64,000 bases of DNA, from positions 39,522,920 to 39,586,919 of the forward strand of contig NC_134234.1 of the NCBI RefSeq assembly GCF_965152275.1. Direction: 5' to 3'. Position numbers and translations under genes: made by a program. The DNA comes from Natator depressus. Taxonomy: Eukaryota. Shown piece by piece: positions 9,701 to 60,949 of the stretch; position 1 is the first letter of the stretch; every line of letters begins with the position of its first letter. The notes beneath the pieces were generated by a model that saw nothing but the letters and a program-made list of their open reading frames with translations, was not told the DNA's origin and searched no databases.

Positions 9701-9829
9701 TTTTTTGGTGAGATTGGTTGATAATGGTAACCACGTTAACAGAATTATATATTCTGTTAATCATATATATAATTAAAATCATATATATTCTGTTAATCTG
9801 TGTTATGTATAAAATTCTGTTAATCAACC

Positions 9830-10905
9830 ACCATTCTTCTTTGGTGCTTCCATGCTGATGATGGGTTCTGCTCGATAACTATCCAAAGCAGGGCAGACTG
9901 AGGCATGTTCATTTTCATCATCTGAGTCAGATGCCACCAGTAGAAGGTTGATTTTCTTTTTTGGTGGTTTGGGTTCTGTAGTTGCCGCATCAGTGTTGCT
10001 CTTTTAAGACTTCTAAATGCATGCTCCAGACCTTGTCCCTCTCAGATTTTACATGGCACTTCAGATTCTTAAACCTTGGGTTGAGTGCTGTAGCTATTTT
10101 TAGAAATCTCACATCGGTACTTTCTTTGCGATTTGTCAGTTCTGCTGTGGAAGTTTTCTTAAAACGAAACGTGCTGGTCATCATCCGAGACTGCTATAAC
10201 ATGAAATATATGCAGAATGCGGGTAAAACAGAGCAGGAGACATACAATTCCCCCCCCCCCCCCCCCCAAGTAGTACAGTCACAAATTTAATTGACACATT
10301 TTTTTTAACGAGCATCATCGGCATGGAAGCATGTCTTCTGGAATGGTGGCTGAAGCATGAAGGGACATATGAATCTTTAGCGCATCTGGCATATAAATAT
10401 CTTGCAATGCCGTGCAAACACCTGTTCTCACTTTCAGGTGACATTGTAAATAAGAAACAGGCAGCAGTATCTCACGTAAATGTAAACAAACTTAGCGATT
10501 GGCAGAATAAGAAGTAGGACTGAGTGGACTTGTAGGTTCTTAAGTTTTACACTGTTTCGTTTTTGAGTGGTGTTCTGTAACAAAAAAAACCCCTGCATTT
10601 GTAAGTTATACTTTCACGGTAAAGAGATTGCGCTTCAGTACTTAGTATTTTTCAATTCACGTCATACATCTTTTGTTTGTCATTTTTACAGTGCCTATAT
10701 TTGTAATAAAAATAATATAAAGTGAGCATTGTGCACTTTGTGTTCTGTGTTGTAACTGGAATCAATATTGAAAATGTAGAAAAACATTCAAAAACATTTC
10801 ATAAATTTCAGTTGGTATTCTATTAAGTGCAATGAATTGCAATTAATTTTTTTTAGTTAATCGTGTGAGTTAACTGCGATTAATTGACAGCCCTAATTTA
10901 TTTAT
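9830..10905 (+). mobile_element. Palindromic hAT-derived non-autonomous element, copy A (lacks the left arm)
   Basis: Collinear with 40170-42060 and 57790-58775. Carries a hAT C-terminal dimerisation fragment (ORF 10323..10517, LLEWWLKHEGTYESLAHLAYKYLAMPCKHLFSLSGDIVNKKQAA) and ends ...gttaactgcgattaattgacagccctaa, the reverse complement of the tagggctgtca... left terminus seen in copies B and C. Confidence 0.7.
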
Positions 10906-11430: not shown

Positions 11431-11586
11431 GGTAAAATTCTGTACAAAGTGCGGTGGAAGGGATATACCTCGGACGATGATACCTGGGAACCAGAGGTTC
11501 ATCTGGAAGACTGTAAGGAAGTGCTGCTTGAATTCCGAAAAAAAATAGTGGATAGTAAGCCTAAGCCTGTTAAGAAGGACATACAG
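11431..11586 (+). CDS. MPHOSPH8: MPHOSPH8 exon 2 (chromodomain)
   Basis: AG acceptor at 11429-11430. Encodes GKILYKVRWKGYTSDDDTWEPEVHLEDCKEVLLEFRKKIVDSKPKPVKKDIQ, near-identical to the human MPP8 chromodomain (GKVLYKVRWKGYTSDDDTWEPEIHLEDCKEVLLEFRKKI...KDIQ). GTATGT donor at 11587. Confidence 0.93.
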
Positions 11587-14698: not shown

Positions 14699-15550
14699 AA
14701 ACTGTCTTTAAATGATGAATTATTTGAGGCAGAATCTGACAGTGACTTGCAAAGTGAAGCAAAAGAAGACACATCACCGAAGAAGAAGAAGAAAAAATCA
14801 AAAGATGGTGAGGATAGAAGCCCAGATGATTTGAAAAAGAAAAAATCAAAGTCTGCAAAATTCAAAGAGAAACCCAGGCTGGAACGTGAAAACTCCTCAG
14901 ATAGTTTGATTTTAGATTCGAAACCAAAAAAAAGAACTTCAGAAACCAAGGAAGATTCAAAAGATCCTAAGAAGCAGAAGAAAGAAGATTCTAAAGAACT
15001 CAAGAAAAAGAAGGGAGAAATTAAAGATTTAAAGACAAAATGTAAAGAGGATTCTAAAGAAAGTAAAAAATTGCGAAAGGAGAAACATGGTGACCTTCAG
15101 TTTGACTCTGAGTCAAGCACCCTAGATGATTCGTTTTCTCAAGTAGCTGACAATGAAAATTCAGACTTGTGTTCTGAGGGTAGAGAGGAGAAACACAAGA
15201 TAAAAAGTGGAAAAGAGAAATCTGAACAGGAAATGGTTATGAAGGATTCCATTGCTGACAGGCAGCCAGATGGGTCAGCAAGTACTGAAGAGGACAGCAT
15301 TGAGCTGAAGGTTAAAAGGAAAAAGAAGAAACTTAAAAAGACTGAAGATTACAAAGAGGAAAGTAAAAAAGTGGAAACAAAGGACAACTATTTGGAGAAG
15401 AAAAATATGCACAAAAAACAAAAAGCTCAAGAAAAGGCAAAATCTTCTGCAGAGTTAGACAAAGTTTCACCTACACCTGCTCCAGTGCAAAAAAGTTTGA
15501 AATTGTGCACTGATGAAAAAGGGCGCAAGTCGACTGATTCAGTTGGGGAG
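14699..15550 (+). CDS. MPHOSPH8: MPHOSPH8 exon 3 (large K/E/S-rich disordered region)
   Basis: Acceptor ttttatag at 14691-14698. Encodes KLSLNDELFEAESDSDLQSEAKEDTSPKKKKKKSKDGEDRSPDDLKKKK...KGRKSTDSVGE (284 codons, phase 0 to phase 0). Colinear with human MPP8 KLSLNNDIFEANSDSDQQSETKEDTSPKKKKKK...STDSAEE. GTAAGC donor at 15551. Confidence 0.85.
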
Positions 15551-28851: not shown

Positions 28852-28957
28852 TACCAGGAAAAGGAAGTAAAGAAAAATGAAATAAAAGAAAAACCTCAGA
28901 AACGATATGACTCCGAAAAGGAAGAAAAAGGCAGAAAAGAGCAGAAGGGATTAAAAA
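28852..28957 (+). CDS. MPHOSPH8: MPHOSPH8 exon 4
   Basis: Acceptor ttgccttcag ends at 28851. Encodes YQEKEVKKNEIKEKPQKRYDSEKEEKGRKEQKGLK (human: ...KEKYQKRHDSDKEEKGRKEPKGLKTLK). GTAAGT donor at 28958. Phase 1 carries over to exon 5. Confidence 0.8.
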
Positions 28958-29899
28958 GTAAGTTATAATCAAGGGTTTTGCACAGTTAGAGAGAACAAAG
29001 AGCTTTTAGACCAGTGGTCCCCAACCAGTTGATCCTGGAGCCTCTGAGTGGCAATCCTGGTCTTAGTCCCCCATCTCGTCCCGCCACCCCCTTCAGGATC
29101 ACAGCCAGCTAGGGGAGTACATCCCATCCACCCTACCATGCTCTCAGCCAAAGAGGTGGTTTTCCAACAGTAGACGGTGCTTTAACAAAGTGCACGCTGC
29201 AGGGACAGTACAGCCCAAATGCTAGATGCGCCCGCTGAACTCACAGTACAGCTGAGATGCGGCTCTCTATCCGAAGCACAGGCTGCAATGCCAGTCAAAG
29301 GAAGCCCCAGTTTGAGAACTGTCCTGATTAAACAAGCAGCCGCAGACAGGTTAATTTACACACATGCAAGGCGCATACCAACCCCATCCCAAACAGATCA
29401 TCAGCCTTAGCCTAACAGAGACTGCAGGGTGTTAACAACAACAGCCACCTTGGTAATTGTCATGACATGAAATGAAATACTCCAGTCTCCTGACTGGGGC
29501 TTTGAAATACCATTAATGGAACAGAGCCTGTTTCCAGTGCAAAACCTGGTGCTCCCAGCCAGGCAGGGGAACGAAATAATTGATTGCCTTCTCGCTATGA
29601 ATTCAAAATGGTGTTTGATGTCCGGTCATTCATTGTTGTAACTGGAATAACAACACAATTCATTTGGCTAATTTGGGATGATGAATGAGCCATTTGGGGT
29701 GCCATTAATGCTGAATAAGGAGAAGGGACTGGCAGGGAAGAGGCTGCACTAATCTCAGAGAGGGGAGGGACAGTGCTTCTGCCTTCCCGAAGAAAATCCA
29801 GTCACTTCCCAGGGTGTTCAGCAAGGCTGTTTTGAAAGTTCAGTGGTCATGTTTTACTAAACCAGCAGCAAAAGGGGAGGCTTCTACTGAAGCATCGTT

Positions 29900-30897: not shown

Positions 30898-32788
30898 GTC
30901 TGGAGAAAATAGAATCATAGAATATCAGGGTTGGAAGGGACCTCAGGAGGTCATCTAGTCCAACCCCCTGCTCAAAGCAGGACCAATCCCCAATCAAATC
31001 ATCCCAGCCAAGGCTTTGTCAAGCCTGACCTTAAAAACTTCCAAGGAAGGAGATTCTACCACCTCCCTAGGTAACGCATTCCAGTGTTTCACCACCCTCC
31101 TAGTGAAAAAGTTTTTCCTAATATCCAACCTAAACCTCCCCCACTGCAACTTGAGACCATTACTCCTTGTCCTGTCCTCTTCTACCACTGAGAATAGTCT
31201 AGAACCATCCTCTCTGGAACCACCTCTCAGGTAGTTGAAAGCAGCTATCAAATCCCCCCTCATTCTTCTCTTCTGCAGACTAAACAATCCCAGTTCCCTC
31301 AGCCTCTCCTCATAAATCATGTGTTCCAGACCCCAATCATTTTTGTTGCCCTTCGCTGGACTCTCTCCAATTTATCCATATCCTTCTTGTAGTGTGGGGC
31401 CCAAAACTGGACACAGTACTCCAGATGAGGCCTCACCAATGTTGAATAGAGGGGAACGATCACGTCCCTCGATCTGCTCGCTATGCCCCTACTTATACAT
31501 CCCAAAATGCCATTGGCCTTCTTGGCAACAAGGGAACACTGCTGACTCATATCCATCTTCTTGTCCACTGTAACCCCTAGGTCCTTTTCCTCAGAACTGC
31601 TGCCTAGCCATTCGGTCCCTAGTCTGTAGCTGTGCATTGGGTTCTTCCGTCCTAAGTGCAGGACCCTGCACTTATCCTTATTGAACCTCATCAGGTTTCT
31701 TTTGGCCCAATCCTCCAATTTGTCTAGGTCCCTCTGTATCCTATCTCTGCCCTCCAACGTATCTACCACTTCTCCCAGTTTAGTATCATCCGCAAATTTG
31801 CTGAGTGTGCAATCCACACCATCCTCCAGATCATTTATGAAGATATTGAACAAAACCGGCCCCAGGACCGACCCCTGGGGCACTCCACTTGACACCGGCT
31901 GCCAACTAGACATGGAGCCATTGATCACTACCCGTTGAGCCCGACAATCTAGCCAACTTTCTACCCACCTTATAGTACATTCATCCAGCCCATACTTCTT
32001 TAACTTGCTGACAAGAATACTGTGGGAGACCGTGTCAAAAGCTTTGCTAAAGTCAAGAAACAATACATCCACTGCTTTCCCTTCATCCACAGAATCAGTA
32101 ATCTCATCATAGAAGGCGATTAGATTAGTCAGGCATGACCTTCCCTTGGTGAATCCATGCTGACTGTTCCTGATCACTTTCCTCTCGTGTAAGTGCTTCA
32201 GGATTGATTCCTTGAGGACCTGCTCCATGATTTTTCCGGGGACTGAGGTGAGGCTGACTGGCCTGTAGTTCCCAGGATCCTCCTTCTTCCCTTTTTTAAA
32301 GATTGGCACTACATTAGCCTTTTTCTAGTCATCTGGGACTTCCCCCGTTCGCCACGAGTTTTCAAAGATAATGGCCAATGGCTCTGCAATCACATCCGCC
32401 AATTCCTTTAGCACTCTCGGATGCAACTCGTCCGGCCCCATGGACTTGTGCACGTCCAGCTTTTCTAAATAGTCCCTAACCACCTCTTTCTCCACAGAGG
32501 GCTGGCCATCTACTCCCCATGTTGCGATGCCCAGCGCAGCAGTCTGGGAGCTGTCCTTGTTAGTGAAGACAGAGGCAAAAAAAGCATTAGCTTTTTCCAC
32601 ATCCTCTGTCACTAGGTTGCCTCCCTCATTCAGTAAGGGGCCCACACTTTCCTTGGCTTTCTTCTTGTTGCCAACATACCTGAAGAAACCCTTCTTGTTA
32701 CTCTTGACATCTCTTGCTAGCTGCAGCTCCAGGTGCGATTTGGCCCTCCTGATTTCATTCATACTAGAAAAAATTGAAGACAAAGGAA
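30898..32788 (-). mobile_element. CR1 LINE, 5'-truncated, with intact-looking RT C-terminal ORFs
   Basis: The minus-strand 3' end carries (ATTCTATG)n, seen as catagaatcatagaat on the + strand at 30898-30915. ORFs 32325..32783(-), 31317..32309(-) and 30994..31320(-) encode classic CR1 ORF2 (HKSMGPDELHPRVLKELADVIAEPLAIIFENSW; [48 protein letters not shown]; FADDTKL; [21 protein letters not shown]). Confidence 0.9.
31317..32309 (-). CDS. CR1 ORF2 reverse-transcriptase domain
   Basis: 330-aa ORF with RT motifs ([38 protein letters not shown]). The upstream ORF 32325..32783(-) continues the protein across one frameshift or stop. Confidence 0.9.
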
Positions 32789-36002: not shown

Positions 36003-39000
36003 TCTTCAAGTGCTTGCGTACGTCCATTCCAATGTAGATGTTTGCGTGCCCCAAATACAGTTGCTAGAAATTTTCCTCTCAGTGGTATCTGTAGGGTCAG
36101 CTCTGGCACCTTCTGGTGCTGTGTACTCATAACGCTGGTATAAAGGGCCCCTCAGTTCCTCCTTATCGCCCGTGACAGTTGCTGGAACTGTTCTAACTTG
36201 CTATCACAAGTTTCTCAGTGGACTGTGGTTTTTTCTGTTAATTGCATATAGTTCTCTTTATAGTTTAGTTTTTCTCTATTAGCAGAGCTTAGGACTTCAA
36301 GTCTTGTGCCCCCTACAACGAGGCTATGCCCCTGAGTGACCTGCACTTCAGATAATAGGTGCTGACTACATGGGTGCTTTGGGACTGGAACACCCACGGG
36401 GGAAAAAATAGTGGGTGCTCCCCCAGCAGCGGCCCCACTGATCAGCTCCTCCCCCTCCCTTCTGCCAGTGATCAGCTGTTCAACGGCATGCAGGAGGCAC
36501 TGAGGGGGAGGAGCAGGGGCAGAAAGAGGCAGGGTGAAGTGGGGGCAGGGCCTGCGGTGGAGCGGGAGTCAAGCACCCCCAGGGAAACCAGAAAGTCCAC
36601 ACCTCTGCTTCAGATGCCTGACATGCTTGGGTGGGGCTCACACCAAGGACCCACTGCAAGATTTGCAGGGATTTTAAGCCCCTTACCAAGAAGGATCAGG
36701 AGGCCAGCTTGAAGTCCCTGCTGTTGGAGGCTGTGCTGAGACCTTCCTTGGAGCCGTGCCGATCGGACTTGCCACTGAGCACTTCATCATGGGTGAGGAG
36801 TGCTCCTCCCACCATGGCAGTCTTGGCACCATTCAGCATCCCCAGTGCCAAGGAAGAAGCAGAAGAAGCTGCAGCTGAGAGAGGTCGTTTCCCATCCCCA
36901 AAGGAGGAAAGGCACGGAGAGCAGAACGGAGTGCGACCTGTGTCAGGCCACTCCTGCCCCGGCAGCCCAGAAGCTGGTGCCGTTGATTCTGGCCCTTATG
37001 TGGGTACCATTGAGTCTGGCTCTGGAAGACCCACCCACACTGGAAGGTCGGCACTGTACCAGTGCTGATGACATAGATGGCACTGCAAAGACGTTTGTTG
37101 CCACCAGGGACATGCTTTCGCTGTCGGTGCTGGCATCACTGGCAGTTCAGGAGTCAGTGATGTCGGTGCCAGGGAGCACAAGGGAGTATGCAGTCACTGG
37201 TCACCATTCGGAGGCCTGGTGCCATTGAAAGGGTAACTGTCCATTTGGTCCCACCACAGTCTTCCCCACCTCAGCACCGATTTCCAGTATCTCTGGGAAC
37301 TACTCATGGTCACCAAGCAGAGACTCATCCTCTGAGTCGGGGTCATACTCCTCCCATCTGAGGAGTTGACCGTGACATGCCTCCAGACATCCCTACCCAG
37401 CTGTGGACTTGGGCTCAGGAATGACATTGGGTTCTTTGCCTCCTGGGTATTGGCCCATGCCCATGCAGTGGCTTTTTTGGAAACTGTGGGCATTTCCATC
37501 TGTGCAGGGGCCCCAGTCGAGGTGCTCCTGATCGGTGGCCTCCGAAAGAGGAGCACCGCCATTCCTTAAGGCAGCGCCTCATCTGGACTCCAGTACCAAG
37601 CTCAGTGCCGAATATCAGGAGCTGGTGCTGTGGGATCAGGTCGGCGAGGAGTGCCATCAGCCGGTATCAGCGTCCACCTCCTCTGCTGCTCAGGCCATGT
37701 CAGGAGCAGGCATGTTACCTTCCCATGATGACTACAAGACACACCAGGAATTACTGAAAAGGGTTGCCAAAATTTGGGGTTACAGGTGGATGTAGTAAGA
37801 GTCCTCAAATAGTCTGGTCAGCATCCTGCTCATGGTGGGCCCATCAAGAGTACCCCTCCCCCACCCCTCAGTGAGGCCATATGGATCTGTTTCCCTACCT
37901 CCCATGGCTAAGAGTGCCAAGAGGAAGTACTTTGTCCCTGCTCACGGCCATGAATTTCTATATATTCATTATTGTCGTCCTCCCCGCTCCCCTCCCCACC
38001 TCACCCCTTGCAGATCCATGGTGGTCTCCCAACGGAAGGGCTCCAAGGCAAAGGACTCCAAGAATCTGGACCTGTTTGGAAAAAAGTCTACCCCACTGGG
38101 GGGTCTGCAGCTTAGGATTGCTAACCAGCAGGTGCTGCTGGGCAGATATGACTTCAACAAGTGGTACTCCATGTTGAAGTCCAAGGACTTGCTGCCACAG
38201 GAAGCTAGACTGGAGTTCTCCCTGGTGGAGGAGGAGAAATCCATAATGAGGGTTTCCCTGCAAGCAGCCCCTGATGCAGCAGATTTGGCAGCCAGGTCCA
38301 TAGCATCTGTGGTAGCCATGTAAGTGTTTGTGGCGTCAGTCCTCCGCCTTCCGCAGGAGGTTCAGTATACCCTCCAGAACCTACCCTTTGAGGGTACTTC
38401 ACTTTTTTCGGAGTAGACCAATACAAAGCTTCACTGTGTGAAAGACTCCAGAGCAACCCTTAAGTCCCTGGGTTTGCATACCCCCGCTACATTGAGGAAG
38501 CACTTCAGATTGAAGCAATCCTCCTGGTTCTTTGACCCTCCCACCCACAGAGGAAACAGAGCTGGGACTTCAGGCATAGGCCACCGCTCCCCCACCGCTT
38601 CAGTCTGCCCCTTGCAGTCACTTGGGCAGCCCTAAGTCCCTTGACGGGACACTCAAGGACGTTGTATCAGTTTGATTTTCCGGATCCTGTTTCCCCTTTG
38701 TTTACAGACTGCTCGTCCCACTTCAAGTGGGCATGCTTCCATAAAACTACAGGCGGTTGTGTGTTGAACATGGTGGAAGTGGGATATACTATCCAGTTCA
38801 GTTCTACCCCTCCTTTCCAGTCCCTCTTCAGGGACCCCTCTCATAAGCAACTTCTGGACTACAACATTCAGCTGCTCCTTTGGGTGGGAGCCGTGGAAGA
38901 CGTTCCACAGGATCTAAAGAGGAAAGGGGTTTATTCCCATTATGTCCTAGTTCCAAAAGCCATCCTGCGCCAGCTCAACAGCTACCTTAAGAAACTGACG

Positions 39001-39300
39001 TTTTACATAGTCTCCTTGGTTTCCATTATTATTCCCTCTGGATCCAGGGGACTGGTCCACCGCCCTCAAATTTGAATGATTCCTACTTTCACATATCTAT
39101 CTTCGAGGTCACAGAAGGTTCCTCACGCACTAGCAATTTGCAGTTCTCCTGTTTGGCCTGTGAGTATTTACAAAGTGCATGGTAGTAGTAGCAGCCTACT
39201 TGAGGAGACAAGGGGTACCCGTATATGGACGAGGCTGGTCAGGGGTCAGTATAGCATCCACTTTATCCGGTCAACATTCAAGGCTCTAGCCTGCTAATAA
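36003..39300 (+). mobile_element. Second DIRS-like element, truncated and degenerate (left ITR, gag-like, start of RT)
   Basis: 36003-36210 (cttcttcaagtgcttgcgtacgtccattccaat...ctcagttcctccttatcgcccgtgacagttgctggaactgttctaac) matches the left ITR of the DIRS at 21128. ORF 37832..38323 (KRKYFVPAHGHEFLYIHY...DLFGKKSTPLGGLQLRIANQQ...) parallels the gag ORFs at 23200-23954. ORF 38641..39075 (LDYNIQLLLWVGAVEDVPQDLKRKGVYSHYVLVPKA) parallels the RT N-terminus (LQEVQSLLAVGAIEEVPRESRGRGFYSRYFLIPKA). Confidence 0.7.
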
Positions 39301-40628
39301 ACTTTTAGAAATTCACTCTCACTCTGGTGCAGAGGATAGTTTATTGGAGCGGTGCTCAACTCTACCCAAGCCCCAGAGCCTTCCTCCCAGAAGTCCAGTT
39401 TCAGGTGATAGTGTTCTTGATCATACACCTCAAGAACCTGTAGCCCAATCTATAGATTAAATTATATATAACCCATATATATAAATTATAGGTTACTTAA
39501 GAATCCCCATTTATCACTTGGAGGGTTGACAGATTTCGGGCTAGAAATAAGTGAATTAATTATGCTTTTTTTGGTCAAATGTTTCTTTTCTCCTATCTTA
39601 AGAAGTTAGCATAGCCAGTGCTACACTGCCATCTAACAAACAATGAGGTCAATAGTGAGAATACATAAAAGGTAGGGCTGTCACGCAATTAAACAATAAT
39701 AGAATACCATTTATTTAAATATTTTTGGGTGTTTTCTACATTTTCAAATATTGATTTCAATTACAACACAATACAAAGTGTACAGTGCTCACTTTTTAAA
39801 TTACAAATATTGGCACTGTAAAAAACAAAAGAAATAGTATTTTTCAGTTAACCTAATACAAGTACTGTAGTGCAGTCTCTTTATCATGAAAGTTGAGCTT
39901 ACAAATACAGAATTTTTACAAAAAAACTGCATTCAAAAATAAAACAATGTAAAACTGTAGAGCCTACATGTCCACTCAGTCCTACTTCAGCCACTCAGGC
40001 AAACAAGTTTAGTTACAATTTGCAGGAGATAATGCTGCCCACTTCTTGTTTACAGTGTCACCTGAAAGTGAGAACAGGCATTCGCATGGCACTGTTGTAA
40101 CTGGTGTTGCAAGATATTTATGTGCCAGATGTACTAAAGATTCATATGTCCCTTCATGCTTCAACCACCATTCTAGAAGATATGCATCCATGCTGGTGAT
40201 GGGTTCTGCTCGATAATGATCCAAAGCAGAGTGGACCGAAGCATGTTCATTTTTATCATCTGAGTCAGATGCCACCAGCAGAAGGTTGATTTTCTTTTTT
40301 GGTGGTTTGGGTTCTGTAGCTTCTGCATCTGAGTGATGCTCTTTTAAGAATTCTGAAAGCATGCTTCACATCTCGTCCCTCTCAGATTTTGGACGGTACT
40401 TCAGATTCTTAAACCTTGGGTCGAGTGCTGTAGCTATTTTTAGAAATCTCACGTTGGTACCTTCTTTGCATTTTGTCAGATCTGCTGTGGAAGTGTTCTT
40501 AAAATGAACATGTGCTGGGCCATCATCTGAGATTGCTATAACACGAAATATATGGCAGAATGCAGGTAAAAGAGAGAGCAGGAGACATACAATTCTCCCC
40601 CAAGGAGTTCAGTCACAAATTTAATTAA

Positions 40629-40630
<2 letters not shown>

Positions 40631-40659
<29 letters not shown>
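40631..40659. repeat. Poly(T) tract (29 nt) inside hAT element copy B
   Basis: Uninterrupted T run. Confidence 0.95.
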
Positions 40660-40663
<4 letters not shown>

Positions 40664-41014
40664 CGAGCATCATCAGCATGGAAGCATGTCCTCTGGAATG
40701 GTGGCTGAAGCATGAAGGGGCATTCGAACTTTAAGCATATCTGGCACATAAATACCTTGCACTGCCGGCAACAAAAGTGCCATGCGAATGCCTTTTCTCA
40801 CTTTCAAGTGACATTGTAAATAAGAAGCAGGCAGCAGTATCTCCTATAAATGTAAACAAATTTGTTTGTCTTAGTGATTGACTGAACAAGAAGTAGAACT
40901 GCGTGGACTTGTAGGATCTAAAGTTTTACATTGTTTTGTTTTTTGAGTGCAGTTATGTAACCCCAAAAAACTACATTTGCAAGTTACACTTTCATAATAA
41001 AGAGATTGCACTAC

Positions 41015-41835
41015 AGTACTCGTATGAGGTGAATTGAAAGCAAATACTCACAAGCAGCTACACACCACAACTAGAAATACTAAAAAAGAAATACTACACA
41101 CAGAAATACTAACCCAGGAACCAGTCCCTGTAACAAACCCCATTGCCTACTCTGTCCCCATTCTACTCTAACGACACCATCGGAGGACCTAACCATATCA
41201 GCCACACCATCAGGGGCTCATTCACCTGCACCTCTACTAATGTGATATGTGCCAGCAATGCCCCTCTGCCATGTACATTGGCCAAACCGGACAGTCTGTA
41301 TGTATAAGAATAAATGGACACAAATCAGATGTCATGAATGGTAACACACAAAAGCCAGTAGGAGAACAGTTCAGTGTCCCTGGACATTCAATAACGGATT
41401 TAAAAGTAGCCACCCTTCAACAAAAAAAATTCAAAAACAGACTTCAGAGAGAAACTGCAGAGCTACAATTCATTTGCAAATTTAAAACCATTAATTTGGG
41501 CTTGAATAGGGACTGGGAGTGGCTGGCTCACTACAAAACAACAGATTTATTTGGGCATAAGTTTTCGTAGGTAAAAAACCCCACTTCAGATGCATGGAGT
41601 GAAAATTACAGATGCAGGCATAAATTATACTGACACATGAAGCAAAGGGAGTTACCTTACAAGTGGAGAACCAGTGTTAACAAGGCCAATTCAGTCAGGG
41701 TGGATGTGGTCCACTCCCAATAATTGATGAGCAGGTGTTAATACCAAGAGAGGGAAGATTGTGTCTTTAAGGTGCCACCGGATTCCTCGTTGTTTTTGTG
41801 GATAGAGACTAACATGGCCACCCCTCTGATACTTG
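41015..41835 (+). mobile_element. Penelope-like element 3' fragment (GIY-YIG endonuclease + tail) inserted into hAT element copy B
   Basis: ORF 41247..41570 (MCQQCPSAMYIGQTGQSVCIRINGHKSDVMNGNTQKPVGEQFSVPGHSITDLKVATLQQKKFKNRLQRETAELQFICKFKTINLGLNRDWEWLAHY) is about 75% identical to the GIY-YIG domain at 50400-50700. The tail ...ctttaaggtgccaccggattcctcgttgtttttgtggatagagactaacatggc follows. Copy B sequence resumes at about 41850. Confidence 0.8.
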
Positions 41836-42416
41836 AAAAATACTATTTTTTGTTTATCATTTTTACAGTGCAAATATTTGTAATAAAAAAAATAAAGTGA
41901 GCACTGTACACTTTGTATTCAGTGTTGTAATAGAAATCAATGTATTTGAAAATGTCAAAAGACGAAAAAAAATTTTAATTGGTGTTCTATTGTTTAACAG
42001 TGCGATTAATTGCGATTAATTTTGTTAATCAGGATTAATTTTTGAGCTAATTGCATGAATGCACTGCAATTAATCAACAGTCTTACAAAGAAGCAATATA
42101 CTTTCATATTATAATTCTAGTTAAATTAACATTCTAAAGGGGGATGAAATTAGGTTTTGAATCTAGTCAGGATTCAGACTTGCATAGGGTAATCACAGGT
42201 AAATAATCTTCACTGAATTTGGCTTTTGCACATACTTAAGTGATCTAATTTGTTAACCTGGCTCCAGGCCTTGGTATTGATAACCTCTAAAAGGTAAATT
42301 AAAAACTTAAAATCTGGCTGTTTCAGCCAACCACCAATCAGGACTACTTATTTAATAAACTTCTGTGGCTTGTATATGTAGTCAGTCCCATTAAACATCT
42401 CTCAATTATATTCTAG

Positions 42417-42671
42417 GTTTGAAGGAGAACAAAAGTGCTTTTGATTTGTTTAATATATCTTCAGAAGAAAAAAATGAATACTCTGAGAATAACCGAAAAA
42501 GAGAGGACTCTTCAGTGGACTATAAATTCATAGAAGAATTCAAATCAAAAGAAAATAAACAATTATACAAGGAAAGGAGGAGCATAAGAGATGAGACCGA
42601 TACCTGGACGTACATTGCTGCAGAAGGTGATCGGGAAGTGGACAATGTATGTCAAATGGAGGAGAATTCTG
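42417..42671 (+). CDS. MPHOSPH8: MPHOSPH8 exon 5
   Basis: Acceptor ttctag ends at 42416. Encodes (S)LKENKSAFDLFNISSEEKNEYSENNRKREDSSVDYKFIEEFKSKENKQLYKERRSIRDETDTWTYIAAEGDREVDNVCQMEENS (human: LKEIRNAFDLFKLTPEEKNDVSENNRKREE...RDETDTWAYIAAEGDQEV...ENSD). GTAAGT donor at 42672. Confidence 0.85.
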
Positions 42672-48828: not shown

Positions 48829-49818
48829 TTGAAACCAGTGCCCCATAACCTCAGCCGTGCAGAACACAATGCCATCCACAGCCTCAGAAACAACTCTGAC
48901 ATCATAATCAAAAAGGCTGACAAAGGAGGTGCTGTTGTCATCATGAATAGGTCGGAATATGAACAAGAGGCTGCTCGGCAGCTCTCCAACACCACTTTTT
49001 ACAAGCCATTACCCTCTGATCCCACTGAGAGTTACCAAAAGCATCTACAGCATTTGCTCAAGAAACTTCCTGAAAAAGCGCAAGATCAAATCCGCACAGA
49101 CACACCCCTGGAACCCCGACCTGGGATATTCTATCTACTACCCAAGATCCATAAACCTGGAAATCCTGGACGCCCCATCATCTCAGGCATTGGCACCCTG
49201 ACAGCAGGATTGTCCGGCTATGTAGACTCACTCCTCAGGCCCTACGCTACCAGCACTCCCAGCTACCTTCGAGACACCACTGACTTCCTGAGGAAACTAC
49301 AATCCATTGGTGATCTTCCTGATAACACCATCCTGGCCACTATGGATGTAGAAGCCCTCTACACCAACATTCCACACAAAGATGGACTACAAGCCATCAA
49401 GAACACTATCCCCGATAATGTCACGGCTAACCTGGTGGCTGAACTTTGTGACTTTGTCCTTACCCATAACTATTTTACATTTGGGGACAATGTATACCTT
49501 CAGATCAGCGGCACTGCTATGGGTACCCGCATGGCCCCACAGTATGCCAACATTTTTATGGCTGATTTAGAACAACGCTTCCTCAGCTCTCGTCCCCTAA
49601 CGCCCCTACTTTACTTGCGCTATATTGATGACATCTTCATCATCTGGACCCATGGAAAAGAAGCCCTTGAGGAATTCCACCATGATTTCAACAATTTCCA
49701 TCCCACCATCAACCTCAGCCTGGTCCAGTCCACACATGAGATCCACTTCCTGGACACTACAGTGCTAATAAACGATGGTCACATCAATCAACACCACCCT
49801 ATACCGGAAACCTACTGA
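48829..49818 (+). CDS. PLE reverse transcriptase ORF
   Basis: 329-aa ORF with Penelope-type RT motifs. The N-terminal part of the protein is probably truncated or decayed upstream. Confidence 0.8.
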   Translation: MKPVPHNLSRAEHNAIHSLRNNSDIIIKKADKGGAVVIMNRSEYEQEAARQLSNTTFYKPLPSDPTESYQKHLQHLLKKLPEKAQDQIRTDTPLEPRPGIFYLLPKIHKPGNPGRPIISGIGTLTAGLSGYVDSLLRPYATSTPSYLRDTTDFLRKLQSIGDLPDNTILATMDVEALYTNIPHKDGLQAIKNTIPDNVTANLVAELCDFVLTHNYFTFGDNVYLQISGTAMGTRMAPQYANIFMADLEQRFLSSRPLTPLLYLRYIDDIFIIWTHGKEALEEFHHDFNNFHPTINLSLVQSTHEIHFLDTTVLINDGHINQHHPIPETY

Positions 49819-50707
49819 CCGCTATTCCTACCTACATGCCTCCAGCTTTCACCCTGACCACACCACACGATCCATCGTCTACAGCCAAGCTCTGCGATAC
49901 AACCGCATTTGCTCCAACCCCTCAGACAGAGACAAACACCTACAAGATCTCTATCAAGCATTCTTACAACTACAATACCCACCTGCGGAAGTGAAGAAAC
50001 AGATTGATAGAGCCAGAAGAGTTCCCAGAAGTCACCTACTACAGGACAGGCCTAACAAAGAAAATAACAGAACGCCACTAGCCGTCACCTTCAGCCCCCA
50101 ACTAAAACCCCTCCAACGCATTATTAAGGATCTACAACCTATCCTGAAGGATGACCCAACACTCTCACAAATCTTGGGAGAAAGGCCAGTCCTTGCCTAC
50201 AGACAGCCCCCCAACCTGAAGCGAATACTCACCAACAACCACATACCACACAACAGAACCACTAACCCAGGAACCTATCCTTGCAACAAAGCCCGTTGCC
50301 AACTGTGCCCACATATCTATTCAGGGAACACCATCACAGGGCCTAACAACATCAGCCACACTATCAGAGGCTCGTTCACCTGCACATCCACCAATGTGAT
50401 ATATGCCATCATGTGCCAGCAATGCCCCTCTGCCATGTACATTGGTCAAACTGGACAGTCTCTACGTAAAAGAATAAATGGACACAAATCAGATGTTAAG
50501 AATTATAACATTCATAAACCAGTCGGAGAACACTTCAATCTCTCTGGTCACGCAATCACAGACATGAGGGTCGCTATCTTAAAGCAAAAAAACTTCAAAT
50601 CCAGACTCCAGCGAGAAACTGCTGAATTGGAATTCATTTGCAAATTGGATACTATTAATTTGGGCTTGAATAGAGACTGGGAGTGGCTAAGTCATTATGC
50701 AAGGTAG
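49775..50707 (+). CDS. PLE RT C-terminal linker + GIY-YIG endonuclease ORF
   Basis: 310-aa ORF. The GIY-YIG core IYAIMCQQC..YIGQTGQSLRKRINGHK...N...GLN fits the Penelope EN domain. Overlaps the RT ORF in a different frame, so a single indel is presumed. Confidence 0.8.
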   Translation: MVTSINTTLYRKPTDRYSYLHASSFHPDHTTRSIVYSQALRYNRICSNPSDRDKHLQDLYQAFLQLQYPPAEVKKQIDRARRVPRSHLLQDRPNKENNRTPLAVTFSPQLKPLQRIIKDLQPILKDDPTLSQILGERPVLAYRQPPNLKRILTNNHIPHNRTTNPGTYPCNKARCQLCPHIYSGNTITGPNNISHTIRGSFTCTSTNVIYAIMCQQCPSAMYIGQTGQSLRKRINGHKSDVKNYNIHKPVGEHFNLSGHAITDMRVAILKQKNFKSRLQRETAELEFICKLDTINLGLNRDWEWLSHYAR

Positions 50708-51150
50708 CCTATCTCCCCTTGTTTTTTTCCTACAAACCCCCCCCCCCCCCAAGACGTTCTGGTTAAACTTGGATTATTGCTGTGCACATTGTAAGATGAG
50801 CTATTGCCAGCAGGAGAGTGAGTTTGTGTGTGTGGTTTTTGGAGGGGTGTGTGTGTGTGTGGGGGGGTGAGAAAACCTGGATTAGTGCTGGAAATGACCC
50901 ACCTTGATTATCATGCGCATTATAAAGAGAGGTTTCAAAGAGGGATGGGCTATTACCAGCAGGAGAGTGAGTTTGTATGTGTGTCTGGGGGGGGGGGAGG
51001 GTGAGAAAACCTGGATTTGTGCTGGAAATGGCCTTCCTTGATGATCACTTTAGATAAGCTGTTAGCAGCAGGACAGTGGGGTGGGAGGAAGTTTTGTTTC
51101 ATGGTCTCTGTGTGTATATAATGTCTTCTGCAGTTTCCACGATATGCTAT

Positions 51151-51192
51151 GCATCCGATGAAGTGAGCTGTAGCTCACGAAAGCTCATGCTC
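51151..51192 (+). ncRNA. Hammerhead-ribozyme-like motif in the PLE tail (minimal helix III type)
   Basis: CCGATGA-A-GTGAGC-TGTA-GCTCAC-GAAA-GCTCATGC-TC. It has the GAUGA core, a perfect 6-bp helix II with a 4-nt loop, GAAA, a very short helix III and a UC cleavage-site candidate. It deviates from the CUGAUGA consensus at one position (U to C), so catalytic competence is uncertain. Confidence 0.35.
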
Positions 51193-52094
51193 AAATAAAC
51201 TGGTTAGTCTCTAAGGTGCCACAAGTACTCCTTTTTCTTTTTTCTTTTTAGTGTCTGTAAAGTTGAGAACCAAGAACCCTGGAGTTCTAATTCAGCCCCT
51301 GACCTTGGTTAAGTCATTTAACCCCTGTCTGTTTCAGGATTCCCTGTTTCATATGGGTGTTTAGTAACTACTTGTAAAGGTCTAAAATGCTAAATATTAT
51401 TGACAGATGCTGTCTTTCCCTTTGAAAGTTCGGTTGTCTGCTGCTAGTAGAAAGGCTTTGTCTGACTCCCTCATCACAGTCACTGCACAAATCAACTCTT
51501 CAGTGGGAGTCTTATCTCTCTTAAATTGAATTTTTACTCAACATGAATTGGGAACTCTGTCTGTTCTCACATGCAGCATCATAAGTAAAACTACAAATCA
51601 GCCTGGCTGCAAGCAAAGTGCTAATCAGTACAGTAGAGATGCTGTCTCTGCCTGGCCATTGAGTTATTCCAAGGGCACTGAGTATTTCCTGTTGTTGGAA
51701 TTTTGTTTCTGTATTGGAGAACTTTCCAGACCTGTCACCAATTTGAATTTTTTGAAGATTCTGCGGTGTACCTGTCTCAAGCTCATTGTGGTATTTAACA
51801 TCTGCAGACCAGACATAAGCAAGCAAATCTCACAACCAAACTAGATTCCGGATAAAATTTGATAGCAGCTCCTCATTTCTAGGAATTGGGATATTCCTCC
51901 TTTTAAATGTAAAGCAGGATGTATTAGCTTTTGGAATTCGGAATCCTAAATCTTACTCTCTAGAATCCTTCTGTGCTTCAATAACTGGTACATCTATTAC
52001 TGATAGTAATCTTTGTACAGTGATATGATCCTTATCTAGAAGGGAATACAGTTGCTCTAAATCTACTGTAAGCATCATTTCTTTGCTTATTTAG

Positions 52095-57194: not shown

Positions 57195-58775
57195 AGAAAT
57201 AAGCAAATTGATGCTTTTTTTGGTCAAATGTTCTTTTTTCCTATCAAACAATGAGATCAAGAGTGAGACTACATAAACGATAGGGCTGTCAAGGATTAAT
57301 CACGCTGTTAATAATAAATACCATTTATTTAAATATTTTTGGATGTTTTCTACATTTTCAAATATTGATTTCAGTTACAACACAGAATATGTGTACAGTG
57401 CTCACTTTGCTTTTTACAATGTAAATGTAATCAAAAATAAAAAATTGTATTTTTCAATTCACCTAACACAGGTACTGTAGTGCATTGTCTTTATCCTGAA
57501 AGTTGAACTTACAAATGTAGAGCTTTTACCAAAAAAAACCCTGCATTTAATGTAAAACTGTAGAGCCTATACATCCACTCAGTCCTACTTCAGCCAATCA
57601 CTCAAACAAGTTTTGTTACAATTTGCAGAAAGTAATGCTGCCTGCTTCTTGTTTACAATGTCACTTGAAAGAAAGAATAGGCATTCACATGGCACTGTTG
57701 TAGCCAGTGTTGCAAGATATTTACATGCCAGATGCGCAAAAGATTCATATGTAACTTCATGCTTCACCATTCCAGAGGAGATGCATCTATGCTGATCGAT
57801 TACGATCTAAAGCAGAGCGGACTGATGCATGTTCATTTTCATCATCTGAGTCAGATGCCACCAGCAGAAGGTTGATTTTCTTTTTTGGTGGTTTGGGTTA
57901 TGTAGTTTCTGTATCTGAGTGTTGCTCTTCTAAGAATTCTGAAAGCATGCTGCACACCCCTTCCCTCTCACATTTTGGAAGGCACTTCAGAGTCTTAAAC
58001 CTTGGGTCAAGTGCTGTAGCTATTTTTAGAAATCTCACATTAGTACCTTCTTTGTGTTTTGTCAAATCTGCTGTGGAAGTGTTCTTAAAATGAACAACGT
58101 GCTGGGTAATCATCCGAGACTATTATAACATGAAATATATGGCAGAATGCAAGTAAAACAGAACCGAGACATACAATTCTCCGCACAAGGAGTTTGGTCA
58201 CAAATTTAATTAACACTTAAAAAAAAGGCATCAGCCGCATGGAAGCATGACGGGGCATACAAAGGTTTAGCATATCTGGCACGTAAATACCTTGCAATGC
58301 TGGCTACAAAAGTGTCATGCAAATGCCTGTTCTCATTTTCAGGTGACACTTTAAATAAGAACTGGGCAGCATTATTTCCCGTAAATGTTTGTCTTGGCAA
58401 TTGGCTGAACAAGAAGTAGGACTGAGTGGTCTTGTAGGCTCTAAAGTTTTGCATTGTTTTGTTTTTGAGTGCAGTTAGGTAACACAAAATCTACACTTGT
58501 AAGTTACACTTTCACAATAAAGAGATTGCACTACAGTACTTAAAATACTATTTCTTTTGTTTACAAATATTTGCCCTGTAAAAATGATCAAAAATAATAT
58601 AAAGTGAGCACTGTACATTCTGTGTTGTAATAAATCAATATATTTGAAAAATGTAGAAAAACATCCCAAAATATTTAAATTCCAAGTGGTATTCCATTGT
58701 TTAACAGTGCAATTCATCATGATTAATTTTTTTGAGTTAATCACGTGAGTTAGCAGCGATTAATCAACATCCCAA
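57195..58775. mobile_element. Palindromic hAT-derived non-autonomous element, copy C (complete, uninterrupted, about 1.6 kb)
   Basis: Collinear with copy B over its whole length apart from the Penelope insertion. Left arm with hATC on the minus strand (ORF 57585..57770: VKHEVTYESFAHLACKYLATLATTVPCECLFFLSSDIVNKKQAA). Right arm 58230-58400 in plus orientation (HGSMTGHTKV*HIWHVNTLQCWLQKCHANACSHFQVTL..). Termini tagggctgtcaaggattaatcacg (57281) and ...gttagcagcgattaatcaac (about 58770). Confidence 0.75.
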
Positions 58776-60949
58776 TGCTTTGTCTCCTCTCCTGGATGAA
58801 TGGAGACTATTTCAGCACATAACTTCCATCCTAATGCTTCAATACTCAAAGAAATCAATGGACATAATGAAAAGTTGGAAGAAGGCTGAAGTAAAGCACC
58901 TACTGTCTAGGTTCCCAGTGCCCAGAGAGGAAAGCCTACCTTGTATCCTTATTGACCCCATAAGATTAGTCTCCACTGGTGGTGGCAACATGATGTCCTG
59001 GTGTCTTAGTGTTGCTCTGCCTCAGCTCTTTACAAAGCCTCCATAAACGTATGCTACTTCCTCCTGCACGTTTCAGCTTCTCTTAGCAAAATGCCAGTAC
59101 GCTGGCATTTGAGGTCTTGTTTGCTTCCCCCCACACCCTGTGGCAGCCAGTTTAACTTGGGAGGGTTCCTCTTTGCTGTCCATGGTTGTCAAGGTTCCTC
59201 CCCCACTCTGAACTCTAGGGTACAGATGTGCGGACCTGCATGAAAACCTCCTAAGCTTACTTCTACCAGCTTAGGTTAAAACTTCCCCAAGGTACAAATT
59301 AATTTTATCCTTTGTCCTTGGAATATCCACTGCCACCACCAAACTCTAACTGGGTTTACTGGGAAATGTAGTTTGGACACGTCTTTCCGCCCAAAATCCT
59401 CCCAACCCTTGCACCCCACTTCCTGGGAAAGGTTTGGTAAAAATCCTCACCAATTTGCATAGGTGACCACAGACCCAAATCCTTGGATCTGAGAACAATG
59501 AAAAAGCATTCAGTTTTCTTACAAGAAGACCTTTAACAGAAATAGAAGTAAATAGAGGTAAAGGAATCACCTCTGTAAAATCAGGATGGTAGATACCTTA
59601 CAGGGTAATTAGATTCAAAACATAGAGAATCCCTCTAGGCAAAACCTTAAGTTACAAAAAAGACACACAGACAGAAATAGTCATTCTATTCAGCACAATT
59701 CTTTTCTCAGCCATTTAAAGAAATCATAATCTAACACGTACCTAGCTAGATTACTTACTAAAGTTCTAAGACTCCATTCCTGGTCTATCCCCGGCAAAAG
59801 CAGCATACCGACAGACACAGACCCTTTGTTTCTCTCCCTCCTCCCAGCTTTTGAAAGTATCTTGTCTCCTCATTGGTCATTTTGGTCAGGTGCCAGCGAG
59901 GTTACCTTTAGCTTCTTAACCCTTTACAGGTGAGAGGATTTTTCTTCTGGCCAGGAGGGATTTTAAAGGGGTTTAACCTTCCCTTTATATTTATGACAAT
60001 GGTGTAATCCTGTTTCCCACATTTAGTGCTTCCTATTGCTATGTCTTGTTGGAAAAGCACTAGCTGCACCTCCTTGCTTCTTACATGGGGCAGGGGTGCA
60101 ATTTTCCACAGGTGCAACCTCTCTATTAATTGGCTCAGGAAGTGGAAACAGAATCTGTGCATTCAGTTTTTTTTTTCCTCCCAGATAATACTGCTGTGGT
60201 GGTTTTGCTGGGAGTCCTTGCAATGGGGTTTTGGACTGGTATTTGAGTGAGGTGCTCAATTATGCTTTAAGGGGGTAATTTGCGAGGGAGGGAACCTGCC
60301 TTCATCTACCTTATGATCTTATTTTTCAAGCAGTAGTTTCCAGAGGCCTCAGCATGTTTAATACTGTTAGAAGTACATGACCCCCAGAAACTTAGTTTAA
60401 TTATTCACTCTTTCTGTAGCTGCTTGCTACATGAGAGGTGTTGGTTTTGCACTAGCTTATATAGCATTGTCTCAGGACAGAAGAGAAGGGGCTCTCCAAA
60501 AGGGAAGTTACTTACCTTTTTGTCACTTGAGTTTTTTGACGTGTGGTCCCTATCTGTCTTCCATTGTAGGTATACATGTGCCTGGAGCCTGCAAACTTTT
60601 GCCAGCTGTATCTGTTGGTCTGTACCTGTGCCCCAGATCTCCTTGTGTTTCAAAACAAGTGTATAAGGGGCAGAAACGATGCCACTAAAGTTTCTTGTAC
60701 CCTGCTAGACTGTGCCCTTACCCCATGTGGAGGAAAAAGCTGTGCCAACTAAAGTAGCATACAACCAGAGATCCACGTCAATTCTCTGAGCATAGTTTGG
60801 CCCCAGACTCATTGGCAGGTAAAACCCCAGTGCTTGTCGCATGTTGAAATAATGTCTCCTCACGACACACTGGGCTTCAGAAAAAATGCAGGTAAATTAA
60901 TCTGACTGGTTTACGTGAAAATCTGAAGCTATTTTACGAGAGAATTTTG

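What the first reader, a model, noticed from the sequence alone, without database searches (positions are those of the whole stretch)
39545..42060. Palindromic hAT-derived element family carrying transposase C-terminal coding fragments in both arms (3 copies in 64 kb)
Copies lie at 9830-10905 (truncated), 39545-42060 and 57195-58775. Each complete copy is a long inverted repeat of about 1.5 kb. Both arms contain the hAT dimerisation-domain sequence (LLEWWLKHEGTYESL.HLA.KYLA.P...CECLFSLSGD.VNKK), once on each strand. This is not a simple short-TIR MITE but a foldback-like derivative of an autonomous hAT transposon. Two copies sit in MPHOSPH8 introns (intron 1 and intron 4), where pre-mRNA transcription would produce a perfect hairpin of several hundred bp, a potential dsRNA/siRNA source. 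Copy B was later hit by a Penelope insertion, which dates the hAT family as older than that Penelope copy.
Basis: seen in the sequence. Interest (0 to 1): 0.55.

Follow-up and report, generated by a model that had tools for sequence, protein, structure and literature searches.

The report
Old palindromic hAT transposon remnants, turtle
Three decayed copies of an ordinary, long-dead "cut-and-paste" hAT transposon family lie in and just after a turtle MPHOSPH8 gene; the family has an unusual mirror-image build, and one copy was made from its neighbour, dragging a piece of that neighbour's flank along.

Summary
The window is a turtle MPHOSPH8 locus holding three copies of one ~1.65 kb repeat: A 9826-10897 (left-truncated), B 39673-42085 (preceded by 128 bp of imported flank, 39545-39672) and C 57281-58775.

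Each full copy has a TAGGGCTGTCA terminus, a ~570 bp left arm, a ~440 bp unique centre and an inverted right arm. On the minus strand, centre plus left arm encode the last ~215 codons of a BED-finger hAT transposase. The right arm repeats the last ~70 codons inverted. All five arm translations match Pfam Dimer_Tnp_hAT, three of them above Pfam's cut-off.

Unrelated Chelonia mydas copies have the same plan, two with perfect 8-bp target duplications. Arms group by side, not by copy, so the palindrome formed once, before amplification.

- The arms are now only 81-85% complementary (69-76% counting gaps), not a perfect hairpin.
- C lies 2.3 kb past the stop codon, not in an intron.
- B is not an independent insertion. 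Its left extension is native flank of locus C, as the Carettochelys empty site shows.

No autonomous parent was found in turtles. This is ordinary transposon biology of low interest.

The parts
9826..10897 (.). Copy A. It is left-truncated and keeps ~20 bp of the left arm, the centre and the whole right arm. The right terminus is ...TTGACAGCCCTA at 10897. The element is absent at the orthologous site of Carettochelys.
9826..10288 (-). Copy A: decayed transposase coding remnant (KFVTVLLGG ... RAEPIISMEA), cut off at the truncation point.
10335..10517 (+). Copy A right arm: inverted second copy of the hAT dimerisation-domain codons (LLEWWLKHEGTYESLAHLA...VNKK...NKK*).
39545..39672 (.). Imported flank, not transposon sequence. 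It is a copy of the DNA that natively lies left of copy C (57195-57280). It still holds 41 bp that C's flank has since lost. It is 85% identical to the element-free orthologous site in Carettochelys (L004 50152-50247).
39673..40201 (.). Copy B left arm, with terminus TAGGGCTGTCA at 39673.
39982..40622 (-). Copy B: decayed open reading frame for the last ~215 residues of a BED-finger hAT transposase (KFVTELLGGE...LDPRFKNLK...LEWWLKHEGTYESL...CECLFSLSGD.VNKK...WLK*). It aligns to residues 373-591 of the 593-aa Oryzias ZBED1-like protein P0254 and spans the centre and the inner left arm.
40202..40667 (.). Copy B unique, non-palindromic centre. A T28 run at 40635-40662 marks the junction with the right arm.
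40668..41048 (.). Copy B right arm, inner part. It carries the inverted second copy of the dimerisation-domain codons (40690-40896, + strand).
41049..41833 (+). Later insertion into B's right arm: a 5'-truncated Penelope-like retroelement tail with a GIY-YIG nuclease remnant (about 41215-41537). A related copy lies at 50243-50688. The insertion is also present in Caretta.
41834..42085 (.). Copy B right arm, outer part. The terminus is ...TCAACAGTCTTA at 42085.
57281..58775 (.). Copy C, complete: left arm about 57281-57796, centre, right arm about 58242-58775. Termini are TAGGGCTGTCAAGG and ...TCAACATCCCAA. An empty orthologous site exists in Carettochelys. C lies 2.3 kb downstream of the MPHOSPH8 stop codon (54981).
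57585..58207 (-). Copy C: decayed transposase C-terminal coding remnant, with frameshifts and stop codons.
58240..58419 (+). Copy C right arm: inverted second copy of the dimerisation-domain codons (LAYLARKYLA...NWLNKK*).

Best explanation
These are fossil copies of one non-autonomous hAT DNA-transposon family. So far it has been seen only in hard-shelled cryptodiran turtles.

Structure. The ~1,647-bp unit has hAT termini (TAGGGCTGTCAA...). Read on the minus strand of the window, the centre plus the left arm are the 3' third of the lost autonomous element. They hold the last ~215 transposase codons, the stop codon, the 3' untranslated and sub-terminal region, and the terminus. The other arm is an inverted second copy of the last ~70 codons plus the 3' end. 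It stands where the parent's 5' end and first ~370 codons (BED finger and catalytic core) would be.

Origin (inferred). This inverted duplication plus deletion happened once. It probably arose by template switching or fold-back during gap repair, or in a parent that already had long inverted ends. The defective element was then amplified in trans by a hAT transposase, making 8-bp target duplications. It has since decayed by 7-10% from its consensus.

This locus. A and C inserted after the split from soft-shell and pig-nose turtles (Trionychia). B is a secondary product of the C locus. It carries ~128-145 bp of C's native left flank joined to the element, ends exactly at the element's right terminus, and has no target duplication.

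Mechanism for B (inferred). Most likely a transposase-induced break or one-ended reaction was repaired by copying from C out through its left end into C's flank. The product was then joined at the B site, where a short G-run of microhomology is visible.

Function. Nothing suggests a present function. Intronic transcripts of A and B could fold into long, imperfect hairpins.
For: Copies and arms.

hAT identity:
- Pfam PF05699 matches on all five arm translations, three above the curated cut-off.
- The remnant aligns to residues 373-591 of the 593-aa BED-finger transposase-like protein P0254, 41% identity, E = 8e-47.

Family-wide plan. Unrelated Chelonia mydas loci L002, L005 and L007 have the same left arm, centre and right arm.

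Transposition signature:
- Perfect 8-bp duplications CAATTTAG (L005) and TTAAGAAC (L007).
- An imperfect pair TAGATAAG / ATAATAAG in L002, inside a CR1 element.

Palindrome made once, before the burst:
- Left-left and right-right arm identity is 0.847 each. Left-right identity is 0.820 within a copy and 0.814 between copies.
- There are 7 fixed and 9 nearly fixed left/right differences.
- The consensus arms are 92.6% complementary.

Age. Copies are 7-10% from the consensus. All three are present in Caretta at 95-97% locus identity. No copy of the element is detected anywhere in the Carettochelys MPHOSPH8 locus.

Empty site for C and native status of the shared flank.

B and C flanks. They share nothing beyond that segment. 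Local alignment scores of the remaining flanks are no better than shuffled sequence.

Transposase gene. Turtles yield only short or chimeric fragments at 70-83% identity. Full-length relatives appear only in teleosts, at 46-50%.
Against: - No autonomous parent was recovered. The order of events (inverted duplication versus internal deletion) and the origin of the outermost ~45 nt of the left end are therefore unproven. That stretch differs from the right end.
- Neither B nor C shows an 8-bp target duplication. About 18 bp of target appear to be missing at C's left junction relative to Carettochelys.
- B's element body shares no excess of derived sites with C: 5 of 1,429, within the range of random pairs. 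The data cannot say whether the whole of B or only its left junction was copied from C.
- The empty site for B could not be resolved in the single outgroup.
- The consensus rests on only eight copies from two species. Genome-wide copy number is unknown.
Confidence: 0.85

Rival explanations
1. The autonomous parent already had long inverted ends that had recruited the last part of its own transposase gene, as described for Galileo of the P superfamily. This family would then be a plain internal-deletion derivative, not a one-step fold-back product.
For: - The two arms had already diverged by ~7% in the master copy, with 7 fixed and 9 nearly fixed differences. That fits an inverted duplication that lived for a long time in a replicating lineage before the burst.
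Against: - No full-length turtle element was found to show it.
- The one full-length teleost relative examined (L008) has no long inverted ends. It is only 41% identical and may be domesticated, so this says little.
Confidence: 0.3
2. The three loci are products of segmental duplication within the MPHOSPH8 region rather than of transposition.
For: B and C share ~128-145 bp of left flank. The three copies lie within 49 kb of each other.
Against: - The same element sits at unrelated Chelonia loci with perfect 8-bp target duplications.
- B's and C's right flanks, and their left flanks beyond the shared piece, are unrelated. The shared unit ends exactly at the transposon terminus.
- A's right flank differs from both.
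- B is no closer to C than to copies from other chromosomes.
Confidence: 0.05
3. B arose by aberrant but transposase-executed transposition of C. The true right end was paired with a pseudo-end in C's flank, so ~130 bp of host DNA travelled with the element (flank transduction).
For: - The unit ends exactly at the right terminus.
- The imported flank contains GAATTAAT about 10 nt from its outer edge. This resembles the sub-terminal GATTAAT/AATTAAT motifs of the element ends.
- The event dates to the period when the family was active, as the star phylogeny shows.
Against: - No 8-bp target duplication flanks B.
- The outer edge lacks a TAG.. terminus in the donor.
- In Caretta the shared segment runs further left into a G-run that may also exist at the B target. 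That looks like microhomology joining.
Confidence: 0.25
4. The intronic palindromes are functional sources of double-stranded RNA (siRNA or editing substrates) that act on MPHOSPH8 or on related transposons.
For: Predicted RNA folds are far more stable than shuffled sequence. B with the insert removed gives -722 kcal/mol (z about -28). C gives -568 kcal/mol (z about -48). Each has 400-465 long-range pairs.
Against: - The stems are imperfect. The longest uninterrupted helix is 26 bp (B) and 19 bp (C).
- B's arm is further split by a 785-bp insertion.
- A lacks one arm, and C is not intronic.
- The copies decay like neutral sequence, 7-10% from consensus with frameshifts and deletions.
- No expression data were available.
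Confidence: 0.04

Closest known systems
Non-autonomous hAT elements (internal-deletion derivatives such as maize Ds, and vertebrate hAT-N / MER1-type fossils)
   Same: hAT-type termini (TAGGG...), 8-bp target duplications, loss of the catalytic part of the transposase, mobilisation in trans, and amplification in a burst followed by neutral decay.
   Different: Here one end is replaced by a ~600-bp inverted copy of the other end that includes the last ~70 transposase codons. The unit is therefore a near-palindrome around a 440-bp unique core, not a simple deletion derivative.
Galileo (P superfamily, Drosophila), a 'foldback-like' transposon with long inverted ends
   Same: Long inverted ends that in some copies have recruited the final piece of the transposase ORF. 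Structural variants are attributed to abortive gap repair, slippage or template switching (PMC4168063).
   Different: A different superfamily (P, 7-bp duplications) and a different host. In Galileo the long ends also occur on nearly complete copies. Here no complete copy is known.
Foldback (FB) elements and palindromic MITEs
   Same: The overall hairpin-forming shape.
   Different: FB arms are built from tandem sub-repeats, and none are found here. MITEs are short and non-coding, whereas this unit is 1.65 kb with a recognisable 215-codon remnant.
hAT-6_XT in turtles (Hassan et al. 2024, PMC11008031)
   Same: A hAT transposon described in turtle genomes, with derived non-autonomous forms in fish.
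   Different: hAT-6_XT copies are under 1% diverged and were recently transferred horizontally. The present family is 7-10% from its consensus and shared by orthology between two turtle lineages, so it is a different and much older family.
Alternative or aberrant Ac/Ds transposition and ectopic gap repair after P-element excision (from general knowledge)
   Same: These processes produce transposon copies joined to stretches of donor-site flank, as in copy B.
   Different: Known from genetic experiments in maize and Drosophila. Here the event is only inferred from one fossil junction.

Membership tests
hAT superfamily transposon (non-autonomous member) | 8-bp target-site duplication | tested here: met
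   Perfect duplications CAATTTAG (L005) and TTAAGAAC (L007), and a 5/8 match in L002. No duplication is seen for window copies B and C. A is truncated, so it cannot be tested.
hAT superfamily transposon (non-autonomous member) | Short terminal inverted repeats starting with the hAT-type YARNG motif | tested here: met
   TAGGGCTGTCAA at both ends of L002, L005, L007, B and C, and at A's right end. That YARNG is the hAT motif comes from general knowledge.
hAT superfamily transposon (non-autonomous member) | Sequence homology to a hAT transposase, including the C-terminal dimerisation domain | tested here: met
   PF05699 matches with E down to 1.4e-11. The remnant aligns to residues 373-591 of a zf-BED + Dimer_Tnp_hAT protein.
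hAT superfamily transposon (non-autonomous member) | No intact transposase gene (non-autonomous) | tested here: met
   Only the last ~37% of the ORF is present, with stop codons and frameshifts in every copy.
Foldback (FB) elements | Long inverted arms composed of tandem sub-repeats | tested here: not met
   No direct-repeat families of 30 nt or more in B or C. The arms are unique transposon 3'-end sequence.
MITE | Small size (under about 800 bp) and no coding remnant | tested here: not met
   The consensus is 1,647 bp with a 215-codon transposase remnant.
Penelope-like retroelement (the insert in B) | GIY-YIG endonuclease domain at the C-terminus of the element's protein | tested here: inconclusive
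   The Pfam GIY-YIG match is weak (E = 0.031, below the cut-off). Close homologues carry PF01541 or are named GIY-YIG domain proteins.
Penelope-like retroelement (the insert in B) | Reverse transcriptase upstream of the GIY-YIG domain | tested here: not met
   The 785-bp insert is 5'-truncated and holds no reverse-transcriptase sequence. The assignment rests on GIY-YIG being, in vertebrate repeats, typical of Penelope-like elements (general knowledge).
Penelope-like retroelement (the insert in B) | Hammerhead ribozyme motif in the terminal repeat | tested here: not met
   The Rfam scan of 39000-42600 at E <= 0.1 found nothing.

The most novel reading that the evidence does not exclude
Copy B records a vertebrate hAT event that carried ~130 bp of host flank from one site to another 16 kb away in the same gene, either by pseudo-end transposition or by one-ended, repair-coupled copying. 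That would be a natural example of DNA-transposon-mediated transduction of host sequence in a reptile. In addition, a near-palindromic transposon sits in introns of MPHOSPH8, a subunit of the HUSH transposon-silencing complex (general knowledge), and might feed double-stranded RNA into that gene's transcripts.
Probability: 0.25. Interest if true: 0.35.

Novelty: new member of a known kind. Interest (0 to 1): 0.2.

Why it matters
It matters little for biology at large. This is a decayed, non-autonomous hAT family of a structural type (ends extended by inverted duplication of the transposase 3' end) that is already documented for other DNA transposons.

It has three modest uses.
- Annotation: fragments of the family are mis-called as proteins or exons in several turtle gene models, including KLF13, TBC1D12, a ZNF354B-like gene and PDZ-domain genes.
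- Phylogeny: the insertions could serve as presence/absence markers. All three are present in two durocryptodiran lineages, and no copy is detected in the Carettochelys locus.
- Mechanism: copy B is a clean fossil of an aberrant event that copied donor flank together with the element.

Tried and rejected
- Rfam scan of 39000-42600 for ribozymes or other RNAs found nothing.
- Look-ups of P0001, P0122 and P0121 failed because they are not the longest isoforms. The X1 isoforms found through cluster listing worked.
- I first took the sequence left of the TAGGG terminus in B and C for part of the element or a degenerate 5' end. The Carettochelys empty site rejects that.
- I first noted a 'shared' sub-terminal deletion in the left ends of B and C. 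The family alignment shows two different deletions, so that point is withdrawn.
- The B empty site in Carettochelys stayed ambiguous. About 350 bp there cannot be aligned.
- A test for a closer B-C relationship by shared derived sites found no excess.
- The search for the autonomous parent used word-indexed and exhaustive protein searches. It found only fragments in turtles and full-length relatives at 46-50% identity in teleosts.
- The teleost relative's locus (L008) was checked for long inverted ends. None were found, but this is uninformative.
- hAT-6_XT, the published turtle hAT, was considered and rejected as the same family on grounds of age.
Full report
**Context.** The window is a vertebrate gene region.
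- tblastn with a recalled human MPP8 sequence located exons on the + strand: a chromodomain exon at 11431-11586, then 14705-15550, 28855-28959, 42419-42670 and onward, with the last coding exon ending at 54981.
- A database search with the translated exons returned proteins named M-phase phosphoprotein 8. The best were Lepidochelys kempii (97%) and Carettochelys insculpta (89%).
- The Caretta caretta MPHOSPH8 locus (L003) is colinear with the window at 95-97% identity. The window therefore comes from a cryptodiran turtle a few percent diverged from Caretta.
- Relative to these exons, copy A lies in the intron before the chromodomain exon and copy B lies in the intron between 28959 and 42419. 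Copy C lies 2.3 kb downstream of the stop codon, in the 3' UTR or intergenic DNA.

- Self-blastn finds three related segments, and within B and C each half matches the other in reverse complement.
- Termini can be read directly. The right ends are ...TTGACAGCCCTA (A, 10897)...TCAACAGTCTTA (B, 42085) and ...TCAACATCCCAA (C, 58775). The left ends are TAGGGCTGTCA at 39673 (B) and 57281 (C).
- A is cut off on the left at about 9826, next to an AT-rich 18-bp tandem repeat.
- B's right arm is interrupted at 41049-41833.

**Anatomy.**
- On the minus strand, B's centre and left arm translate into a decayed but continuous reading frame: KFVTELLGGELYVSCS..LPAFCHIF..HFKNTSTADL..LDPRFKNLK..SDSDDKNEH..LEWWLKHEGTYESL..CECLFSLSGDTVNKK..WLK* (40622 down to 39982).
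- This frame aligns over its whole length to residues 373-591 of P0254, a 593-aa zf-BED plus Dimer_Tnp_hAT protein from Oryzias melastigma annotated as ZBED1 (41% identity, E = 8e-47).
- The element therefore keeps only the last ~37% of a hAT transposase.
- The right arm starts about 70 codons before the stop and repeats that stretch, plus the 3' non-coding end, in inverted orientation.
- All five arm translations match Pfam PF05699, three above Pfam's cut-off. C's two arms score just below it.

**It is a family with a fixed plan, moved by a hAT transposase.**
- A protein search with the consensus remnant returned ~80%-identical short or chimeric predicted proteins from many turtles: Malaclemys, Caretta, Chelonia, Chrysemys, Eretmochelys, Lepidochelys, Natator, Macrochelys and Mauremys. 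Teleost ZBED1/ZBED4-like proteins followed at 55-66%.
- I fetched the DNA of five Chelonia mydas hits.
  - L002, L005 and L007 hold complete copies with the same left arm, centre and right arm.
  - L001 holds a truncated copy. The L006 copy runs into an assembly gap.
- L005 and L007 are flanked by perfect 8-bp duplications (CAATTTAG and TTAAGAAC). L002 sits inside a CR1 element with an imperfect pair TAGATAAG / ATAATAAG.
- A consensus of 1,647 bp was built, and copies differ from it by 7-10%.

**The palindrome was made once, before amplification.**
- Left arms resemble other left arms (mean identity 0.847) and right arms resemble other right arms (0.847). Both values exceed the identity between a left arm and the right arm of the same copy (0.820) or of another copy (0.814).
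- There are 7 fixed and 9 nearly fixed left/right differences.
- The consensus arms are 92.6% complementary over ~570 bp. The outermost ~45 nt differ more.
- This rules out independent fold-back formation in each copy and rules out homogenisation within copies. It also means the master was never a perfect hairpin during its burst.

**Present-day hairpins are imperfect.**
- B's arms (insert removed) are 85% complementary without gaps and 76% with gaps, with a longest perfect run of 23 nt. C's arms are 81% and 69%, with a longest run of 16 nt.
- RNAfold still predicts long-range pairing. MFE is -722 kcal/mol for B and -568 kcal/mol for C, far below shuffled controls, with 400-465 inter-arm pairs. 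The longest uninterrupted helices are 26 bp (B) and 19 bp (C).
- 'Perfect hairpin of several hundred bp' is therefore wrong.

**Are the three copies independent? Not all.**
- B and C share sequence to the left of their left termini (39545-39672 against 57195-57280).
- No copy of the element is detected in the Carettochelys locus (L004). It does contain this very sequence, at the position orthologous to C's left flank (L004 50152-50247, 85% identical to B's copy). That stretch is followed directly by the orthologue of C's right flank...GAGAATATGTAACTCTTGCCTC|TGCTTTGTTTCC....
- The segment is therefore native DNA of locus C, and L004 is an empty site for C. B carries a copy of C's flank, including 41 bp that C has since lost.
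- In Caretta the shared stretch runs ~15 bp further left into a G-run.
- Beyond it, the left flanks and the right flanks of B and C are no more alike than shuffled sequence.
- Neither B nor C has an 8-bp duplication, and about 18 bp of target seem to be missing at C's left junction.
- B's body shares no excess of derived substitutions with C: 5 of 1,429, within the range of random pairs. The event therefore dates to the family's active period, or only the junction was copied.
- I conclude that B is a secondary product of locus C.
  - It may have arisen by one-ended, repair-coupled copying out of C's left end, followed by end joining. I favour this because there is no target duplication and there is G-run microhomology.
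  - Alternatively it arose by pseudo-end transposition.
  - Both mechanisms are inferences.
- An empty site for B could not be resolved in Carettochelys.
- A is absent from the orthologous Carettochelys position. Alignment resumes right after A's end and a microsatellite.
- All three copies, and the insertion in B, are present in Caretta.

**The insertion in B.**
- The 785-bp insert encodes ...CPSAMYIGQTGQSV.IRINGHKSD...GLNRDWEWLAHYK.
- Its Pfam GIY-YIG match is weak (E = 0.031). Its closest database relatives carry PF01541 or are named GIY-YIG domain proteins in Chelonia and Chrysemys.
- A related copy lies at 50243-50688.
- There is no reverse-transcriptase part and no Rfam hammerhead.

**Autonomous parent.**
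- None was found in turtles. All hits of 70% identity or more are short fragments or fragments embedded in unrelated gene models.
- Full-length relatives (549-912 aa, zf-BED plus Dimer_Tnp_hAT) are teleost ZBED1-like proteins at 46-50% identity.
- The one teleost locus examined shows no long inverted ends.
- I therefore cannot say whether the inverted duplication arose in the deletion derivative or already in the parent.

**Comparison with what is known.**
- The element meets the defining features of a non-autonomous hAT element: termini, 8-bp duplications, transposase homology and a missing catalytic part.
- It is not a Foldback element, because it has no sub-repeat arms. It is not a MITE, because of its size and coding remnant.
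- Extension of inverted ends by recruiting the end of the transposase ORF is described for Galileo in Drosophila (PMC4168063).
- The published turtle hAT-6_XT is a different, recent family (PMC11008031).
- I could not query Repbase or Dfam, so I rate it as a new member of a known kind. It may well already have a library name.

**Verdict.** This is ordinary transposon palaeontology, with one mildly interesting detail (B made from C, with C's flank). Interest 0.2.

Noticed in passing
window 48841-51249: A 2.4-kb block with no counterpart at the orthologous Caretta position (L003 is contiguous there). It contains the second copy of the GIY-YIG / Penelope-like sequence (50243-50688). It is either a lineage-specific insertion or a deletion in Caretta.
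   Followed up: partly
window 30912-32760; also 7830-8536 and 59187-59998: Further blocks absent from the orthologous Caretta locus. The stretch 30910-31911 is 85% identical to a repeat elsewhere in L003 (64301-65285). Conversely, L003 25988-26902 is absent from the window. These are probably lineage-specific repeat insertions.
   Followed up: no
window 9746-9815: An AT-rich 18-bp tandem repeat (TATATATTCTGTTAATCA...) directly abuts the truncation point of copy A. It is also present in Caretta.
   Followed up: no
window 40635-40662 (B) and 10250-10268 (A): The junction between the centre and the right arm carries unstable homopolymers: T28 in B, a C run of about 18 just before it in A, and only a short A/T run in C and the Chelonia copies.
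   Followed up: no
proteins P0381, P0387 (labelled Listeria monocytogenes) and P0014 (labelled MAG Aeromonas sp.): Short contigs deposited as bacterial encode vertebrate transposon proteins: a turtle-like GIY-YIG fragment at 71-76% identity and a fish-like hAT dimerisation domain. This looks like host DNA contamination in bacterial assemblies.
   Followed up: no
proteins P0057 (KLF13 isoform X1, Chrysemys), P0245 (TBC1D12, Chrysemys), P0078 (ZNF354B-like, Macrochelys), P0061/P0097/P0100/P0115 (PDZ-domain proteins, sea turtles): Fragments of this hAT remnant appear as terminal or internal coding segments of turtle gene models. This is either exonisation or annotation artefact.
   Followed up: no
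L007 10381-10804: A ~420-bp GC-rich insertion, probably another repeat, interrupts the left arm of that Chelonia copy.
   Followed up: no
L004 31907-32258: At the Carettochelys position corresponding to the B site lie ~350 bp that cannot be aligned with the window. They begin TAGGGGGTATACC, which is hAT-terminus-like. This could be a different small element or ancestral sequence lost in the window's lineage.
   Followed up: partly
window 14062-14268: This stretch matches an extra coding exon used by Caretta MPHOSPH8 isoform X1 (residues 108-176). My recalled human sequence has no match to it.
   Followed up: no
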